Source of the DNA: an uncultured Verrucomicrobiae bacterium
Lineage (GTDB): Bacteria; Verrucomicrobiota; Verrucomicrobiia; Chthoniobacterales; Terrimicrobiaceae
DNA: 64,000 bases
NCBI GenBank assembly: GCA_963706955.1
Contig: CAVPOC010000005.1
Coordinates: 120,477 to 184,476, forward strand
Direction: 5' to 3'
A program made the position numbers. Positions 45,001 through 51,000 of this stretch are shown piece by piece (position 1 is the first letter of the stretch; each line of letters begins with the position of its first letter).

Positions 45001-48000
45001 GCTGCTTGAACTCGACTTCGAGGGCTTCTTTTGATCGAAGAACTTGGTGGAGACCACATGATCCATTTGGTTGGTTGACGATAGTCCGAATTTTGATTCG
45101 CCGTGGTCAATAAATCGAAAATCATGATTTTGTTGTAGACAGCACTCGCGACCCGTGAATTGCCATGGCAACGTTTGCCACCGCGGACCCCGCAGTGTCG
45201 AAAGGAATTGCCGTAAGTCTTTTCATACAGAATTCATCAGTTGGTTGCAGATTGTAGGTAAGGAGAGTAGCTTCCCCGGAACCCCCCAAACTTGTGAAAG
45301 ATGAGGCAAGCTCCCCCCAGAGACCCTCGAGGTTCTCCCCGTGCTTGCCCAAGGACCGTTGCTGCTTCACCCGAAGTCGTTAGACGGATCCTTCACAATT
45401 CAACCCTACCTATCAAATAACATCGAGGAGACAATCCATGGAAGACATTCAACAGCCCAAGTTCGTCGCAAAACCAAACGCGCCCCAACTGAAAGGAAAT
45501 CGGATGAAATCCCCTCCTGAGTCGCCTGCTGACGATGGCCGGCGCCCTGTCGCTCCTGTGCGGCATCTCGATGACGGCGATTGCGGCAGGCCCGCAAGTC
45601 GTCACCGGTCCTGGTGCCGATGCCGATTGTTTCAAGCCGTGGAATGCCGACACAAAGTACTTCAAGTGGCCAAAAAAAGATGGTCCCTATCGCATCGCAC
45701 TGGTCAATGGATTCATCGGAAATACGTGGCGTATCCAGATGATCAAAACGGCCAAAGCCTACGCCGACCAGCCCAATGTGAAGAGCCAACTGAAGGAATT
45801 CAAGGTGGTATCGACCGGTGAGGACCTTGCCGCCCAGATCGCCGCAGCAAATAACTTCATTGACTCCGGCTACGATGCAGTGATCGTGAACGCGCTAAAT
45901 CCGGCCGCCTTCGCGCCGGTCGTCAAGCGCGCCAACGCCGCCGGTGTCGTCCTATTGTCATTCGATAACGTTATCGAGTCGCCTGATGCGGTCATAGTCA
46001 ACGTCGACCAGGTCGAACTAGGCCGCCTCGCTGCTCGCTGGCTCTTAAAGGAGATCAAAGCGGACTCGGGCAAGATCCTCGAGGTCCGGGGACCATCGGG
46101 TAATTCGGTCGATCGCGATCGGCACAACGGTTTCCACGAGGTCCTCGATAAATCCGGTAAGAAGTTCGAGGTAGTCGAAGTCGTAGGAAAATGGGATGAC
46201 GGCACCGCCCAGAAGGCGACGGCCGACGCCATTGCGATCCACAAAAAGTTCGATGGTATATATACGCAGGGTGGTTCGACTGGCACGGTCCAGGCCCTGA
46301 TTGATGCGAAACATCCGATGATCCCGGTGTCCGGCGAAACCGAAAATGGCTACCGCAAGTTATGCGCAAAATATGCCGACCAAGGTCTCCACGGTTCGTC
46401 GGGCGGAACGGGGCCAGCCCAAGTCGCGGTAACTATCAAGGCGGCTATCGCCGCACTCCAGGGTAACGCGATTCCGCAGGCGATAGCGTTACCGGTCTCC
46501 TATGTCGAGTTTCCAAATATGAAGGAAGGCCAGGACTACTATCCTGACCTCGCCGACAACTTCTTCGTTGGGAATTCCTTTCCAGACTGCAACATCGGCT
46601 TCACTGCCAAAGAGATCATGGGTAAGTCGGAGTCGAACGAGTGACGTTTCCTGAAGGGACTGGCGTCCCGGGAGATATTCCCCGCGACGCAACCAGTCCG
46701 GCGGATGTGACGGGGGAACCCTTGTTCCGAATGGAGGGTGTCTCTAAGCGTTACGGCGGCGTGCGCGCACTTGAGGAAGCTCGGTTCGAGTGCGTGAGGG
46801 GCCGAATTCATGCGGTCCTCGGCGAGAACGGCGCCGGAAAATCAACGCTGATAAAGGTGATGGCTGGGGTGGTCCAGCCAGATTCGGGTACATTGAGAAT
46901 GGAGGGCCAGTCTGTCACATTCCGCAATCCGGCAGCGGCGACGGAGGCGGGGATTGCCTGCATTTTTCAGGAACTGTCGCTGATTCCCGACTTGACGGTC
47001 GCCGACAACATCGCGATCACCCGTCCGCCGACGCGCTTGGGCCTGATTGATAGCCGAGCTCAACGCCGCGTCGCGGAAGAGGCACTTGCCCGCGCCGGGG
47101 CGCGTGACATTCATCCGCTCTCGCCGGTGAAGGACCTGCCTCTGTCACGCCGGCAATTGGTCGAAATCGCCAAGGCCCTCTCGCGGAGGCCTAAGATCCT
47201 GATCCTGGACGAGGCGACTTCGGCGCTGACCGCCGGCGACGTCGAGAGGGTCTTCCGCGTTCTCAAACAACTTCGCTCGGAGGGTTTGGCTATCGTTTAC
47301 ATCTCACACCGCATGCACGAGGTCGCCAAGCTCGCTGACGATTGCACGGTTTTTCGCAATGGTCGGTACGTCGCGACATTCGATGCTGGGACGAAGAGCG
47401 ATGAAGCGATCGTGGAGTTGATGATCGGGCGGGAATATAAGAGCGTGTTTCCGCCGAAGGCGGCGGAGATGCCAAAGCGCGCACCGGCGCTCAAGGTTAA
47501 AAATCTATCCTGGGCGGGACGCCTCAACGGGATCGAGCTGTCGATCAGGCCAGGGGAGGTGGTCGGCCTCGGTGGACTAGATGGGCAAGGCCAACACGAG
47601 CTCTTGCTCGCCCTATTCGGCGTTCTGGTCGGAGTCTCCAGCACGGTTGAGGTCGCGGGCAAACCCGTTACTTTGAAAAGCCCACGCACGGCCAAGGGGA
47701 AAGGCGGCATGGCGCTCATTCCTGCAGATCGCAAAACCGAAGGTTTGATGTTGCCGATGTCGGTTCGCGACAATTTGTCCTTTGCCGCCGCTGAGCGATT
47801 CTGCCGCTTTGGCCTGATCGACAGCACTGCCGAAAAAACTGCTATTGATCGGGTTATCCAGCTATTGCAAATCCGATCGGATGGCACCGACGGTCCAGTC
47901 GGTGCGCTTTCTGGCGGCAATCAGCAGAAAGTTGTCATCGGCAAATGGCTGATGATCGAGCCCCGGATCATCCTCCTGAACGACCCGACTCGGGGCGTCG

Positions 48001-51000
48001 ACGTCGCGACTAAACAGGAATTCTACCAATGCCTGCGTCGGTTGGCCGACGAAGGTGCCGCCATCCTGTTCTATTCGACGGATTACGATGAGCTGATCGG
48101 CTGTTGCGACCGAGTCCTGGTTCTCTATAACGGCGCGATCGTCCGAACGCTCGAAGGTGCCGCCATTACCGAGCGAGATCTCGTCGCGAGCGCGCTCAAT
48201 CTGCCCACGGCTGCGACGGAGAGCGCTCCGGTGGCGATCACAGAGATGCGTCCGTCGACCGAGAGGTTTGGCTCCCAGCCCGCCGAAGCCACGCCAAGCA
48301 GCCCACGCGCCGTCAATCGACGGAAACGCGACTGGAACTTTTTTTTTGCCGAGCAGCGCGGACTGCTCTTCGCCATCGCGCTGTTTATTGCGATGTTCGC
48401 GCTCTACTTATCGAAGCATCCAGCAGGCTTCAGCGCCAGAGTAGTCAATACGGCGGCCAACACGGGAACCTTACTCGCGCTCGCGGCGATGGCACAGACC
48501 ATCCCGGTTCTCACTGGCGGGCTCGACCTCTCGGTCGGCATGGTCTTGGTGCTCGCAAACTGCGTGGCCTCGACGCTGATGAACGGTTCGCCGCTTCAGA
48601 CGGCGGCCGGGGTCGTGGCGGTCCTCGTTGTTGGCCTCTTATGCGGTGCGATCAACGGCAGTATCGTCGTCTATGGCCGCCTGCAACCAATCATCGCGAC
48701 CCTCGCTACCGGCGCGATTTATTATGGCGTTGCACTCTGGCTAAGACCCTCGCCAGGGGGTACGGTGAACACGGATTTCGCTGACGTCGTTGTCAGCTCG
48801 CTTCCCGGTGGCATCCCGGTGTCCCTAGTTCTTCTCCTCGGGATCGTGCTTTTCATCTGGCTCCCCTACCGCCATTCGGTTCTCGGTCGCGGGGCTTATG
48901 CGATCGGCTCCTCGGAGCAGGCCGCCTATATGTCCGGTATTCCAATCGCCCGCGCCAAGTTCCTCGCTTACGTTTTAGCTGGGCTTCTCTCCTCGGTCGC
49001 TGGCTTGCTCCTGACCTGTATCACCTATTCTGGTGAAGCCAACGCGACTCTTGGCGGCAGCTATACCTTAAACTCGATCGCAGCGGTCGTAATCGGCGGA
49101 ACCTCACTATTTGGCGGCTCCGGCGGCGCGATCGGCTCGATCTTCGGTGCCTTCGTGCTGAGGACGATTGGTAATCTGCTCCTGGTATTCGATCTAGAGC
49201 CGCTCTGGCAGCCGTTATTTCTTGGCGTTGTCCTCCTCGTCGCCGTCAGCCTCGGTTCAGTTCGGCTACTTCGGATCAAAAATAGGCTCGACGTCTACCA
49301 AGGAGGAGGCGAGCGAGCGGTGCGGGTCGGGACTCGCCAACGAATTGATCCGGTGGTGCTAGCGGCGTTCGGCTGCATCGTCGCGCTGCTCCTGATCGGC
49401 TCATTGTATTCGTCGAACTTTCTCTCTCCGGCGTATTTGGTACAGCAACTCCAAGTGGCCTCGTTCCTTGGCGTCATCACCTGCGGTCTCATGTTGGTTG
49501 TCCTCCTTGGCCATATCGATCTGTCAATCCCTTGGGTAGTGGCGATGGGAGGTATGATGTCAACCGCGGCGGGCGGCTGGGGCGGAATCGGTCCGGCGCT
49601 GGCTATTCCGATCGGCATCGCGTCTGGCCTTGGGATCGGTCTCCTAAATGGCCTTGGCGTCGCCTATCTTCGCGTGCCCTCCATGATTTTTACTCTTGCT
49701 ACCAATGTCATCGTCCAGGGACTGATGATAGTCCACACGAGTGGATTCGCCCCCCAGGATCGGGCCACCGACGCGATGCACCTGATCGCTGTTGGCCGAT
49801 CACTGGCCGGAATACCCAATACGGTTTGGGTCTGGCTGACAGTCGGCCTCTTTGTGGTAGTGTGCCTGACCCGATCGATCTTCGGCCGTCGCGTCTACGC
49901 CATCGGCAATTGCGAGTCGGCGGCTTACCTCTCTGGTGTTGATACACGTCGCGTGACTCTCGCATGCTTCGCTATTTCAGGCGCTTGCGCGGCTTTTGCC
50001 GGCGTTCTGCTCGCTGGCTACTCGACCCACGCCTATCAGGCGATGGGAGACCCGTACCTCCTCCCGGCGATCGCCGCCGTGGTGCTCGGCGGCACGAGTA
50101 TCCTCGGCGGCCGCGGCACATTCCTCGGCACGATCGCTGGCGCAATCCTAATCACGCTGCTGCAATCAATACTTTCAGTGGTCCAGGTGCCGGAAGCTGG
50201 GCGTCAGATTATTTATGGGGTTGTCATCGTCGCCATGCTTCTGCTTTACGGCCGCGAGCGCTTGCATCAGTGACTTTCCCGTCCTGCGCCGTCTGCACTA
50301 AACCACTTCTTTCCCACCCCAGGCTCCAGCGTCCGCACGCAAAACCGTTTCACGGTAGACTCAGCATCGCCCATGCTGCACGTCGCCAGGACTTCGGAAT
50401 GTTTGCGCATGCCGGCGCGTATCTATTCCTCAAGCAATTCTCCGGCCACCGCACTCATTCTTTTGCACAGTTCGCGCCAGCCATGACATTCGCTATGCTG
50501 TCTTGAGAGGCGTCAGCGCTCGTCTGTGCACATTCGTGAGCCTCTCCGTGAGAGTGCCCTTACGTTCGGCTGTCCTGCGTTTTGGGGGATTCTGCGCGAT
50601 CAATATCACGCGCAAGTAGTGATAGAGTGTCAGGGTATTAATTTTGGCGGAAATGATCTAAACGTGCCAGGCGGAAAGGCTAGCTCCCTTACAAGTCTCC
50701 TACATAGTCATTGATTGTGTCATTAACTGAGCTCAAGTGGCTCTGATTGGTGGGACGTTGGTGAGGAGGGACATTCGGCTCATATCTTTTCATGGAAAGC
50801 TGATCTGCTAACATCTTCGCTTCACGTGCATCTATTGCGTATCGCGCATAACGGCGACGTCGTATCACAAGGCGCGCCAGCACATAGGTGGGAGTGCACG
50901 AACGGATAACGAGCATCTTCTTAGGCCTCATTCGTTATCTATTGTTTTTGAATCTTCTGATTGCGTTTATCGTTTGCTGGCGGACCATCGGTAGTTTTTC

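What a model noticed while it worked through the whole genome (the two positions that open the first line are those of the whole stretch)
45535..50273. A complete binding-protein-dependent sugar ABC importer (NBD-NBD-TMD-TMD) encoded as one 1210-residue polypeptide
g01768 carries, in one uninterrupted ORF, the two fused ATPase domains of a RbsA-type CUT2 sugar importer (res 27-521, 70% identical to Mesorhizobium RbsA1) followed by two RbsC-type permease domains (BPD_transp_2 at 605-868 and 934-1200); the cognate periplasmic ribose/allose-type binding protein g01767 overlaps its start by 4 nt. All four core domains of an SBP-dependent importer are thus in a single chain, the layout textbook-typical of eukaryotic exporters and not described for bacterial importers. 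The same genome holds the likely intermediate: g03169 (C8:874719-877166; NBD-NBD-TMD, 815 aa) with a separate second permease g03170.
Evidence so far: pfam.tsv rows and Swiss-Prot hits. find_homologous_proteins on residues 480-1210: four independent 90%-clusters of 1209-1221 aa with PF00005+PF02653 (75-98% id; one stands for 218 member sequences, contigs up to 148 kb), so the fusion is not an indel artefact of this assembly; about 85 of the best 120 hits are ~860-990-aa NBD-NBD-TMD fusions and about 30 are ~670-aa TMD-TMD fusions, giving a stepwise fusion series. Review PMC4338842 (passage read, call 151): in bacteria the four domains are separate subunits or partly fused NBDs and/or TMDs, single polypeptides with all four being the eukaryotic pattern; full-text search gave no report of a single-chain ABC importer.
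(Added by a program. Inside this text positions count along the whole contig: contig position 120,477 is position 1 of the stretch shown here. "Call 12" and the like, gene names such as g00115 and contig names such as C1 are that model's own, and its searches are not shown. The text may have been shortened before it was handed on; [...] marks where a part breaks off. The agent that wrote the report below was given it as the finding of a first reader that could run no searches.)

Follow-up and report, generated by a model that had tools for sequence, protein, structure and literature searches.

The report
Single-chain sugar ABC importer, by stop-codon loss
One gene in this soil bacterium really does encode both motor domains and both membrane domains of a binding-protein-dependent sugar importer as a single 1210-residue protein, made when the stop codon between two neighbouring genes was lost; it is a rare, conserved and apparently undescribed layout, but only one step beyond a very common three-domain fusion.

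Summary
Window 46641-50273 (+) is one open 1210-codon frame: tandem ATPase domains (res 26-520), permease 1 (561-870) and permease 2 (908-1207). It overlaps by 4 nt the stop of a Peripla_BP_4 binding-protein gene (45535-46644).

The fusion is not an artefact. The same in-frame junction (…Y-Q-G-G-E-R-A/S…) occurs in four 90%-identity clusters (75-98% identity), in a same-genus genome, and in contigs of other public runs.

Orthologues show how it arose. Most are NBD-NBD-TMD1 (860-917 aa) followed in the same frame by a 317-aa TMD2 gene. In one relative the gap reads TAA TAG GCG ATG; here it reads GAG CGA GCG GTG.

Predicted structure supports a working importer:
- The whole chain folds confidently (pTM 0.73), with disordered linkers.
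- The permease has the type II importer fold (HmuU Z 15.6).
- The binding protein is predicted to dock with one lobe on each permease (0.64 versus best control 0.15).
- One ATP site is canonical and one is degenerate.

The layout is rare: 2 of 301 genomes of the order, and a sister genome has it split by a 1-nt deletion. No function is shown. Independent TMD-NBD-NBD-TMD single chains also exist. Eight literature searches found no description.

Verdict: new variant of a known kind, moderate interest.

The parts
45504..45534 (+). Remnant of the ancestral start of the binding-protein gene. ATG at 45504 is out of frame with the gene because 2 nt are missing after 45509.
   Evidence: One search gives the sequence. 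One search shows that G006 and G004 read ATGAAACTTCCCC... = MKLPLLSRLLTMAG..., while G000 lacks 'CT'. table 4 shows 'CT' present behind 45509 in contigs of runs X5 and X15.
45535..46644 (+). Periplasmic sugar-binding protein gene (369 aa as callable here; 381-385 aa in relatives), Peripla_BP_4 family.
46641..50273 (+). The 1210-codon fused gene NBD-NBD-TMD-TMD. Its GTG start overlaps the upstream stop by 4 nt.
   Evidence: The start position is shared by all four full-length clusters. There are no stops in G000 or G006.
46641..46730 (+). Variable N-terminal extension (res 1-30) before the first ATPase domain.
   Evidence: dN/dS is 0.86 versus G006. G004 carries a compensated +1/-1 indel pair here. 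pLDDT is below 50.
46731..48200 (+). Tandem ATPase (res 31-520). NBD1 has Walker A GENGAGKST (61-69), Walker B ILILDE (186-191) and H-loop ISHRM (221-225). NBD2 has signature LSGGNQQK (423-430) but a degenerate Walker A (GLDGQGQ, within 309-320) and Walker B (LLND, within 443-455). The NBD1 signature is degenerate (LSRRQ, 168-172).
   Evidence: the motifs are conserved in the 49 ATPase-bearing rows of alignment A1. The best fold matches are the fused-NBD subunits Mtb OppD/DppD.
48201..48335 (+). Linker 1 (res 521-565), P/S/T/A/E-rich and ending in a basic stretch (RAVNRRKRDW).
   Evidence: pLDDT is below 50 for model residues 514-553, which are protein residues 524-563. It holds 7 K/R. The G004 1-nt deletion falls here (gene nt 1602 = window 48242).
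48336..49310 (+). Permease domain 1 (res 566-890), about 10 transmembrane helices.
   Evidence: with helices. Three-domain orthologues end exactly here at ...IY[KLQ]G[GST].
49300..49322 (+). Fusion junction. It holds a Shine-Dalgarno-like AAGGAGGAGG (49300-49309), GAG CGA (49311-49316, Glu891-Arg892) where relative G030 has TAA TAG, then GCG, then GTG (49320-49322) where G030 has the ATG start of the separate permease gene.
   Evidence: The junction ER[A/S] is shared by P0153-P0156 and by 16 of 17 cluster members or fragments checked. It is bridged by contigs of runs X1, X5 and X16 (table 8).
49323..50270 (+). Permease domain 2 (res 895-1210), about 10 transmembrane helices, type II importer fold.
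   Evidence: VIA-align gives HmuU Z 15.6, HI1471 Z 14.9, FhuB Z 13.8 and PsaC Z 12.9. Foldseek ranks BtuC first.

Best explanation
The two genes form a two-gene operon for a binding-protein-dependent monosaccharide importer of the CUT2 family (TC 3.A.1.2, RbsABC/AraFGH kind). The whole membrane-plus-motor core is one polypeptide.

Shown:
- The chain contains a RbsA/AraG-like tandem ATPase, then two non-identical RbsC/AraH-like permease domains.
- It arose from an NBD-NBD-TMD1 gene and an adjacent in-frame TMD2 gene by substitution of the stop codon(s) between them.
- The open junction has been kept across lineages that differ by about 25% in protein sequence.

Inferred:
- The chain inserts with both linkers in the cytoplasm, each permease being about 10 helices with N-in and C-in.
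- The two permeases pack as a pseudo-symmetric type II (BtuC/HmuU-like) pair.
- Their TM6-TM7 cytoplasmic loops dock on the two ATPase lobes.
- The periplasmic binding protein delivers the sugar with one lobe on each permease.
- Transport is driven by a single competent ATP site (NBD1 Walker A/B with the NBD2 signature). The second site is degenerate and probably only binds nucleotide or is structural.

Fusion fixes the 1:1:1:1 stoichiometry and the heterodimer arrangement. It probably changes nothing fundamental in the mechanism. The sugar is not identified.
For: - Architecture.
- Origin by in-frame stop loss: G030 reads GGA GGC TAA TAG GCG ATG where G000 reads GGA GGC GAG CGA GCG GTG. The 57 three-domain orthologues printed (P0157-P0213) end ...[YF]-x-G-x or ...[YF]-G, at the residue before the 'ER' of the fused forms. 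G070 and G180 have a single in-frame TAA there.
- Maintenance: four 90% clusters at 75-98% identity share the ER[A/S] junction. So do 16 of 17 further cluster members or fragments. On the tree the fused forms are two deep lineages (path 0.62 changes per site), and one origin is not excluded. G006 has an intact 1210-codon frame.
- Independent contigs: DNA contigs of two other studies and one RNA-library contig bridge the junction without a frame break.
- Selection: dN/dS of G000 versus G006 is 0.33 overall and 0.34 in TMD2, like TMD1 at 0.45. In P0155 the codon at the old start position encodes Ile, which cannot be ATG, GTG or TTG. In that lineage TMD2 therefore cannot be started at the ancestral start codon.
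- Fold: the AlphaFold2 model of residues 11-1210 has pLDDT 78.4 and pTM 0.73, with only the termini, the two linkers and one short loop (model residues 839-846) below 50. TMD2 matches type II importer permeases at Z 12.9-15.6, with the next hit at 7.7.
- Binding protein: the predicted complex scores 0.64 against a best control of 0.15. That mark was reached by 116 of 157 solved complexes and 2 of 215 mismatched pairs. The runs agree in at least 84% of contacts and the partner pLDDT is at least 79. SBP residues 58-128 contact TMD1 loops and residues 188-257 contact TMD2 loops. No CUT2 complex is in the PDB by sequence, so this pass is unlikely to be recall of a solved CUT2 structure; type II complexes with binding proteins are solved, though.
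- Topology: K/R-rich segments at 521-566, 742-775, 878-904 and 1077-1106 fit cytoplasmic linkers and coupling loops.
- Motif asymmetry is conserved in 49 sequences. It matches what PMC11466899 reports for B. subtilis RbsA and NupO (passage read).
Against: - There are no functional or protein-level data.
- The form is rare. Only G000 and G006 of 301 genomes of the order have it uninterrupted, none of 80 metagenome loci do, and there are 4 clusters against more than 110 clusters of stand-alone TMD2.
- G004 (same genus, 97% nt identity) has a 1-nt deletion in linker 1 that splits the gene.
- A Shine-Dalgarno-like sequence and a GTG remain at the old TMD2 start in G000, so free TMD2 could still be made.
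- In G000 the binding-protein gene has lost its first 11 codons by a 2-nt deletion, so this particular copy may be impaired or mis-assembled.
- dN/dS of 0.33 between close relatives is not very low.
- All structure evidence is prediction.
Confidence: 0.7

Rival explanations
1. The fusion is a neutral read-through accident. The stop between TMD1 and TMD2 was lost, but the cell still makes functional TMD2 mainly by internal initiation at the retained Shine-Dalgarno-like sequence and GTG. The long chain is then a tolerated by-product with no role of its own.
For: AAGGAGGAGG lies 10-13 nt before the GTG at the ancestral start position. P0154 has Met and P0156 has Val at that codon. The fused form is rare. 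G004 apparently tolerates, or at least shows, a different split of the same gene.
Against: P0155 and P0286 have Ile at the old start codon. The open junction persists across two deep lineages. A read-through chain that misfolded in the membrane would be expected to be selected against rather than kept in 218 + 1 + 2 + 28 member sequences. The model packs the four domains confidently as one chain.
Confidence: 0.15
2. The locus is decaying in this genus. The fused frame is still open, but the system is no longer used.
For: There is a 2-nt deletion at the start of the binding-protein gene in G000. G004 has a 1-nt deletion in linker 1. Another CUT2 system in the same window has its permease spread over three frames. 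No sugar-catabolic genes flank the operon here, whereas G030 has an IlvD/Edd-type dehydratase downstream.
Against: dN/dS is 0.22-0.45 across the domains, not about 1. G006 has both genes intact. Contigs of other runs carry the intact binding-protein start. RNA-library contigs cover both genes, although DNA carry-over cannot be excluded. The indels could also be assembly errors of draft genomes.
Confidence: 0.1
3. The fusion is an assembly or sequencing artefact that joins two genes.
For: G000 is a 15-contig draft, 92.5% complete, with several frameshifted genes.
Against: The junction differs from the split state by base substitutions in frame, not by an indel. It recurs in G006, in four protein clusters from several sources, and in contigs of independent runs.
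Confidence: 0.02

Closest known systems
E. coli RbsABC / AraFGH / other CUT2 (TC 3.A.1.2) monosaccharide importers
   Same: The parts are the same: a tandem-NBD ATPase (AraG model E 2e-144, RbsA 3e-127), 10-helix BPD_transp_2 permeases and a Peripla_BP_4 binding protein encoded alongside. The site asymmetry is also shared (PMC11466899).
   Different: In those systems the ATPase and the permease(s) are separate polypeptides. Here all four core domains are one chain. Scores are below every NCBIfam equivalog cut-off (481.6 versus 689 for AraG; 425.3 versus 745 for RbsA), so the sugar is not assignable. The E. coli subunit layout is recalled, not tested here.
NBD-NBD-TMD three-domain CUT2 fusions (uncharacterised; e.g. 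P0157-P0212 and the 917-aa protein of G030)
   Same: They are direct orthologues at 65-78% identity, with the same linker 1 and the same binding protein. They are very common: 115 of the 120 best whole-length hits, and the majority of the 150 best 50%-identity representatives, which are about 804-903 aa.
   Different: They stop after TMD1 and need a separate 317-aa TMD2 encoded 3-6 nt downstream in the same frame.
FhuB of the E. coli ferrichrome importer FhuCDB (PDB 7lb8)
   Same: It is a type II importer with two permease domains fused in one chain. It is a structural match to TMD2 (Z 13.8, 265 residues aligned, rmsd 5.2).
   Different: Its ATPase FhuC is a separate homodimer. It belongs to a different family (FecCD) and carries a siderophore, not a sugar.
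TMD-NBD-NBD-TMD CUT2 proteins (P0012 1265 aa, with a cluster member from a Solirubrobacteraceae MAG; P0016 1186 aa; P0032 1175 aa; P0041 1156 aa)
   Same: All four core domains of a CUT2 system are in one chain, with 2 ABC_tran and 2 BPD_transp_2 stretches each.
   Different: The domain order differs, identity is only 33-35%, and at least one is from another phylum, so the origin is independent. They are equally uncharacterised.
Eukaryotic full-length ABC exporters (ABCB1/P-glycoprotein and kin)
   Same: Two TMDs and two NBDs are in one polypeptide. Many also have one degenerate ATP site (recalled).
   Different: The order is TMD-NBD-TMD-NBD, the fold is the type IV exporter fold, there is no binding protein and the transport direction is opposite. 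The only similarity found is in the NBDs.

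Membership tests
CUT2 family ABC importer (TC 3.A.1.2) | ATPase subunit with two fused ABC domains of the RbsA/MglA/AraG type | tested here: met
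   NCBIfam AraG E 2.1e-144 (res 26-520), RbsA 3.2e-127, XylG 2.6e-125. Pfam ABC_tran in 2 stretches.
CUT2 family ABC importer (TC 3.A.1.2) | Permease(s) of the BPD_transp_2 (RbsC/AraH) type, about 10 transmembrane segments | tested here: met
   Pfam BPD_transp_2 E 2.1e-61 in 2 stretches. RbsC model at 561-870 and AraH model at 913-1202. About 10 hydrophobic segments or helices per domain. The 10-TMS expectation comes from PMC3654945 (passage read).
CUT2 family ABC importer (TC 3.A.1.2) | Cognate periplasmic binding protein of the ribose/allose (Peripla_BP_4) type encoded in the operon | tested here: met
   P0002 matches Peripla_BP_4 at E 1e-42. Its stop overlaps the fused gene's start. Predicted docking scores 0.64 against a best control of 0.15.
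CUT2 family ABC importer (TC 3.A.1.2) | ATP-driven uptake of a monosaccharide | not testable with these tools
   This needs uptake or ATPase assays and ligand binding to the binding protein.
Specific equivalogs (AraG/AraH, RbsA/RbsC, XylG, AlsA, YtfR) | Score at or above NCBIfam's curated equivalog cut-off | tested here: not met
   The scores are AraG 481.6 < 689, RbsA 425.3 < 745, RbsC 275.9 < 398, AraH 242.5 < 378 and YtfQ 54.6 < 510. The substrate is therefore not assigned.
Type II ABC importer (BtuCD/HmuUV/FhuCDB structural class) | TMD with the 10-helix BtuC-like fold | tested here: met
   This rests on a predicted model only. VIA-align gives HmuU Z 15.6 (257 aligned, rmsd 5.1), HI1471 Z 14.9, FhuB Z 13.8 and PsaC Z 12.9, with the next hit at 7.7. 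The Foldseek top ten are all type II permeases.
Type II ABC importer (BtuCD/HmuUV/FhuCDB structural class) | Coupling helix in the cytoplasmic loop between TM6 and TM7, contacting the NBD | tested here: inconclusive
   K/R-rich loops at 742-775 and 1077-1106 lie between the sixth and seventh hydrophobic segments. The TM6-7 rule comes from PMC3971661. I could not read inter-domain contacts from the model.
Full-length (four-domain, single-chain) ABC transporter as in eukaryotic ABCB/ABCC | Two TMDs and two NBDs in one polypeptide | tested here: met
Full-length (four-domain, single-chain) ABC transporter as in eukaryotic ABCB/ABCC | Alternating order TMD-NBD-TMD-NBD with the type IV exporter TMD fold | tested here: not met
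   The order is NBD-NBD-TMD-TMD. The TMD fold is type II importer. ABCB1 matches are confined to the NBDs.

The most novel reading that the evidence does not exclude
This is a naturally occurring, selectively maintained binding-protein-dependent ABC importer whose entire core (two ATPase and two permease domains) works as one polypeptide. Together with the independently evolved TMD-NBD-NBD-TMD chains of other phyla, it would be the first recognised class of 'full-length' importers. That would show that the multi-subunit build of bacterial importers is a habit of gene organisation, not a mechanistic requirement. It would also offer a stoichiometrically fixed, single-gene target for the first experimental structure of a CUT2 transporter.
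Probability: 0.4. Interest if true: 0.55.

Novelty: new variant of a known kind. Interest (0 to 1): 0.45.

Why it matters
Reviews describe bacterial importers as assemblies of separate or partly fused subunits, and treat the all-in-one chain as the eukaryotic exporter pattern (PMC4338842, PMC3971661; passages read). A conserved natural exception shows that the importer core can be made and inserted as one protein. It also documents, codon by codon, how such a chain arises from adjacent in-frame genes.

On the practical side, no CUT2 ATPase or permease appears in the PDB by sequence search. A single-gene transporter with fixed stoichiometry, a defined heterodimeric permease pair and one active ATP site would be a convenient object for cryo-EM and for dissecting site asymmetry. 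The biological consequence is probably small, since the mechanism should be that of ordinary RbsABC-type systems.

Tried and rejected
- Sequencing or assembly artefact: rejected.
- g03169/g03170 of the same genome as the evolutionary intermediate: rejected. It is only 31-33% identical, and the true intermediates are the 860-917-aa orthologues with a 317-aa partner.
- Recurrent independent fusions within the orthologue clade: not supported. The tree needs at most two changes and one origin is not excluded, and all fused forms share the ER[A/S] junction.
- Promoter and terminator scan of 44800-51000: counts were no higher than in shuffles, so it says nothing.
- Substrate inference from neighbours: the only neighbours are an SDR on the other strand upstream and a PAS-cyclase downstream. 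No assignment was possible.
- Alignment A2 (TMD pair): it misaligned TMD1 of the three-domain proteins onto TMD2 (about 30% identity). I abandoned it and modelled TMD2 alone (A3).
- Foldseek with the whole-chain model: it returned only NBD matches, so the TMD had to be searched separately.
- Metagenome scan with P0155: none of the 80 loci kept was a four-domain form and the source contig of P0155 was not among them. The DNA of the distant fused lineages could therefore not be read.
- Our-findings look-up: nothing bore on this locus.
- Parts of the stretch without contig cover in single runs are not interpreted.
- I did not inspect the C4:111937-115398 locus (an open frame of 1191 aa).

Full report
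**What is there.**
One search lists two co-directional ORFs: 45535..46644 (369 aa) and 46641..50273 (1210 aa, GTG start). They overlap by the four bases GTGA.

- The first ORF is a Peripla_BP_4 periplasmic binding protein (Pfam E 1e-42).
- The second carries two ABC_tran stretches and two BPD_transp_2 stretches.
- NCBIfam aligns an AraG/RbsA-type tandem ATPase to residues 26-520, a RbsC-type permease to 561-870 and an AraH-type permease to 913-1202. All scores are far above chance but below the curated equivalog cut-offs.
- The family is therefore clear (CUT2, TC 3.A.1.2) and the sugar is not.

**Is the fusion real?**
- A same-genus genome (G006) has the same uninterrupted 1210-codon frame at 96% protein identity.
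- The protein database holds four 90%-identity clusters of 1209-1221 aa at 98, 93, 78 and 75% identity. One of them has 218 members.
- Of 17 further members or fragments of these clusters that I checked, 16 contain the same read-through junction.
- One cluster member is an NCBI record from a Terrimicrobiaceae MAG, named only 'ATP-binding cassette domain-containing protein'.
- Contigs of public runs from other studies bridge the junction without a frame break:
  - X1 record 7 has no gaps.
  - X5 record 31 and the RNA-library record 24 of X16 carry the in-frame 3-nt variant that G006 also has.
- An artefact is excluded.

**How it arose.**
All 57 three-domain orthologues I printed (P0157-P0213) end at ...[YF]-x-G-x or ...[YF]-G. 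That is the residue before the 'E-R-A/S' that follows in the four-domain proteins.

In G030 (another family of the same order, 75-81% identity) the 917-aa NBD-NBD-TMD1 gene ends GGA GGC TAA TAG. After GCG, the 317-aa TMD2 gene begins with ATG in the same frame. The window reads GGA GGC GAG CGA GCG GTG. G070 and G180 have a single in-frame TAA at that place.

The fourth domain was therefore added by base substitution of the stop codon(s), with no indel. A Shine-Dalgarno-like AAGGAGGAGG (49300-49309) and a GTG at the old start (49320-49322) are still visible.

Further back, metagenome relatives at 54-73% identity are mostly unfused, with NBD-NBD, TMD and TMD in different frames. Only 1 of the 80 loci is a three-domain fusion and none is four-domain. 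The complete series of separate, three-domain and four-domain forms thus exists among relatives of this very system.

**Is it maintained?**
- On a tree of the shared NBD-NBD-TMD1 region (64 rows, IQ-TREE quick) the fused forms make two deep lineages: P0001/P0153/P0154 and P0155/P0156.
- Both sit in the basal polytomy of the 59-row orthologue clade. One origin is not excluded, and the shared junction residues favour it.
- The path between the two lineages is 0.62 changes per site, so the frame has stayed open over substantial divergence.
- dN/dS between G000 and G006 is 0.33 overall: NBDs 0.22, TMD1 0.45, TMD2 0.34. The first 30 codons give 0.86.
- In P0155 and P0286 the old start codon encodes Ile, which rules out the ancestral start there.

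Evidence against strong selection:
- Uninterrupted four-domain frames were found in only 2 of 301 genomes sampled from the order.
- Stand-alone TMD2 orthologues fill 119 of the 120 best short hits.
- G004 (same genus, 96.8% nt identity) has a 1-nt deletion at gene position 1602, inside linker 1. This yields a 599-aa ATPase ORF and a TMD-TMD ORF. Whether that is a real fission, decay or a draft error is unknown.

**Predicted structure and mechanism.**
- AlphaFold2 on residues 11-1210 with a 78-row alignment gave pLDDT 78.4 and pTM 0.73. Only the termini, linker 1 (protein residues 524-563), a short loop and linker 2 (873-901) fell below 50.
- Hydropathy gives about ten segments per permease. 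K/R-rich stretches lie at 521-566, 742-775, 878-904 and 1077-1106. This fits N-in/C-in permeases with cytoplasmic linkers and TM6-7 coupling loops.
- TMD2 modelled alone (pLDDT 76, pTM 0.79) matches type II importer permeases:
  - HmuU: Z 15.6, 257 residues aligned, rmsd 5.1.
  - HI1471: Z 14.9.
  - FhuB: Z 13.8.
  - PsaC: Z 12.9.
  - The next hit is at 7.7. Foldseek ranks BtuC first.
- This agrees with an AlphaFold survey that files B. subtilis RbsACB under type II (PMC11466899, passage read).
- The ATP sites are asymmetric (conserved in 49 aligned sequences):
  - NBD1 has canonical Walker A, Walker B and H-loop, and NBD2 has the canonical signature LSGGNQQK.
  - NBD2 has GLDGQGQ for Walker A and LLND for Walker B, and NBD1 has LSRRQ for the signature.
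  - The prediction is one catalytic site and one degenerate site.
- The binding protein (residues 24-369) was folded with the fused permease pair:
  - It scored 0.64 (median of three runs) against a best control of 0.15.
  - That mark was reached by 116 of 157 solved complexes and 2 of 215 mismatched pairs.
  - The runs agree in at least 84% of contacts and the partner pLDDT is at least 79.
  - Lobe 1 (58-128) sits on TMD1 loops and lobe 2 (188-257) on TMD2 loops.
- All of this is model-based support, not proof.

**Comparison with what is known.**
The parts are those of RbsABC/AraFGH-type importers. The new thing is only that they are one chain.
- Fused NBDs (RbsA) and fused TMDs (FhuB) are textbook.
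- Three-domain NBD-NBD-TMD fusions are abundant in databases (115 of the 120 best hits) and are acknowledged in general terms ('occasionally three' subunits, PMC3971661).
- PMC4338842 and PMC8144104 describe the all-in-one chain as the eukaryotic pattern.
- Eight full-text searches turned up no single-chain binding-protein-dependent importer. I also read passages of seven papers.
- TCDB, InterPro and subscription journals could not be searched.
- The exhaustive representative search also revealed four 50%-identity clusters of 1156-1265 aa with the order TMD-NBD-NBD-TMD, plus nine TMD-NBD-NBD forms among the best 150. One of these clusters includes a Solirubrobacteraceae MAG protein. Four-domain CUT2 chains have therefore arisen at least twice.
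- No CUT2 ATPase or permease is in the PDB by sequence.

**Caveats specific to this copy.**
- In G000 the binding-protein gene lacks two bases just after its ancestral ATG (45504). The callable ORF therefore starts at 45535 and loses the basic n-region of the signal peptide (MKLPLLSRLLT in G006 and G004).
- Contigs of runs X5 and X15 have the two bases.
- Another CUT2 system in the window has its permease in three frames.
- The draft may carry indel errors, or the strain may carry many pseudogenes.

**Verdict.**
This is a real, conserved but rare four-domain single-chain CUT2 importer gene, created by in-frame stop loss. It most likely works as an ordinary binding-protein-dependent type II-fold sugar importer with one active ATP site. 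It is a new variant of a known kind. Interest is moderate (0.45): it is a neat exception to a textbook generalisation and a handy structural target, but mechanistically incremental and functionally untested.

Noticed in passing
window 45504-45535: The binding-protein gene of G000 lacks 2 nt ('CT') present in G006, G004 and in contigs of runs X5 and X15. This removes the first 11 codons (the basic n-region of the signal peptide). It is either a strain-specific lesion or an assembly error.
   Followed up: partly
window 21845-24700: A second CUT2 system lies here. An intact 534-aa tandem ATPase (21845..23449) is followed by a permease whose homology runs through three different frames (tblastn with P0006). 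It is a frameshifted pseudogene or carries indel errors.
   Followed up: partly
own genome: C1:42227-44734, C8:869709-872351, C8:874716-877082, C8:886716-885699: Several paralogous CUT2 loci match the query across both ATPase and permease regions, with open frames of 824-895 aa (some with a stop inside the match; not dissected), and may be NBD-NBD-TMD fusions. This lineage seems prone to fusing ATPase and permease.
   Followed up: no
own genome C4:111937-115398: A CUT2-like ATPase match (query residues 19-388) lies in an open frame of 1191 aa, with further pieces in other frames downstream. I did not inspect it.
   Followed up: no
L013 about 700-1400 (G030): About 890 nt separate the binding-protein gene from the ATPase gene in G030. 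A frame through the spacer translates to the same peptide of about 60 aa three times, which suggests a tandem or dispersed repeat insertion in the operon.
   Followed up: no
P0012, P0016, P0032, P0041: Four 50%-identity clusters of 1156-1265-aa proteins have the order TMD-NBD-NBD-TMD. These are a second, independent kind of single-chain CUT2 core. A member of the P0012 cluster comes from a Solirubrobacteraceae MAG.
   Followed up: partly
window 54502-55516: An IS110-family transposase is split into two overlapping ORFs: DEDD_Tnp_IS110 at 54502..55053 and Transposase_20 at 54971..55516.
   Followed up: no
window 39871-42270: An ATP-dependent DNA ligase ORF (+, 39871..41073) and a LigD primase-polymerase ORF (-, 40963..42270) converge and overlap by about 110 nt.
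   Followed up: no
window 50500-51800: A low-GC stretch (0.48-0.51 versus about 0.60) lies just downstream of the fused gene. It has no ORF with a Pfam match.
   Followed up: no
(homologues of P0002): The binding protein is more conserved than the transporter (up to 89-90% versus 78% in the same lineages). Its close homologues carry names from Pseudomonadota, Myxococcota, Acidobacteriota and Verrucomicrobiota MAGs, which suggests horizontal spread of the system.
   Followed up: no
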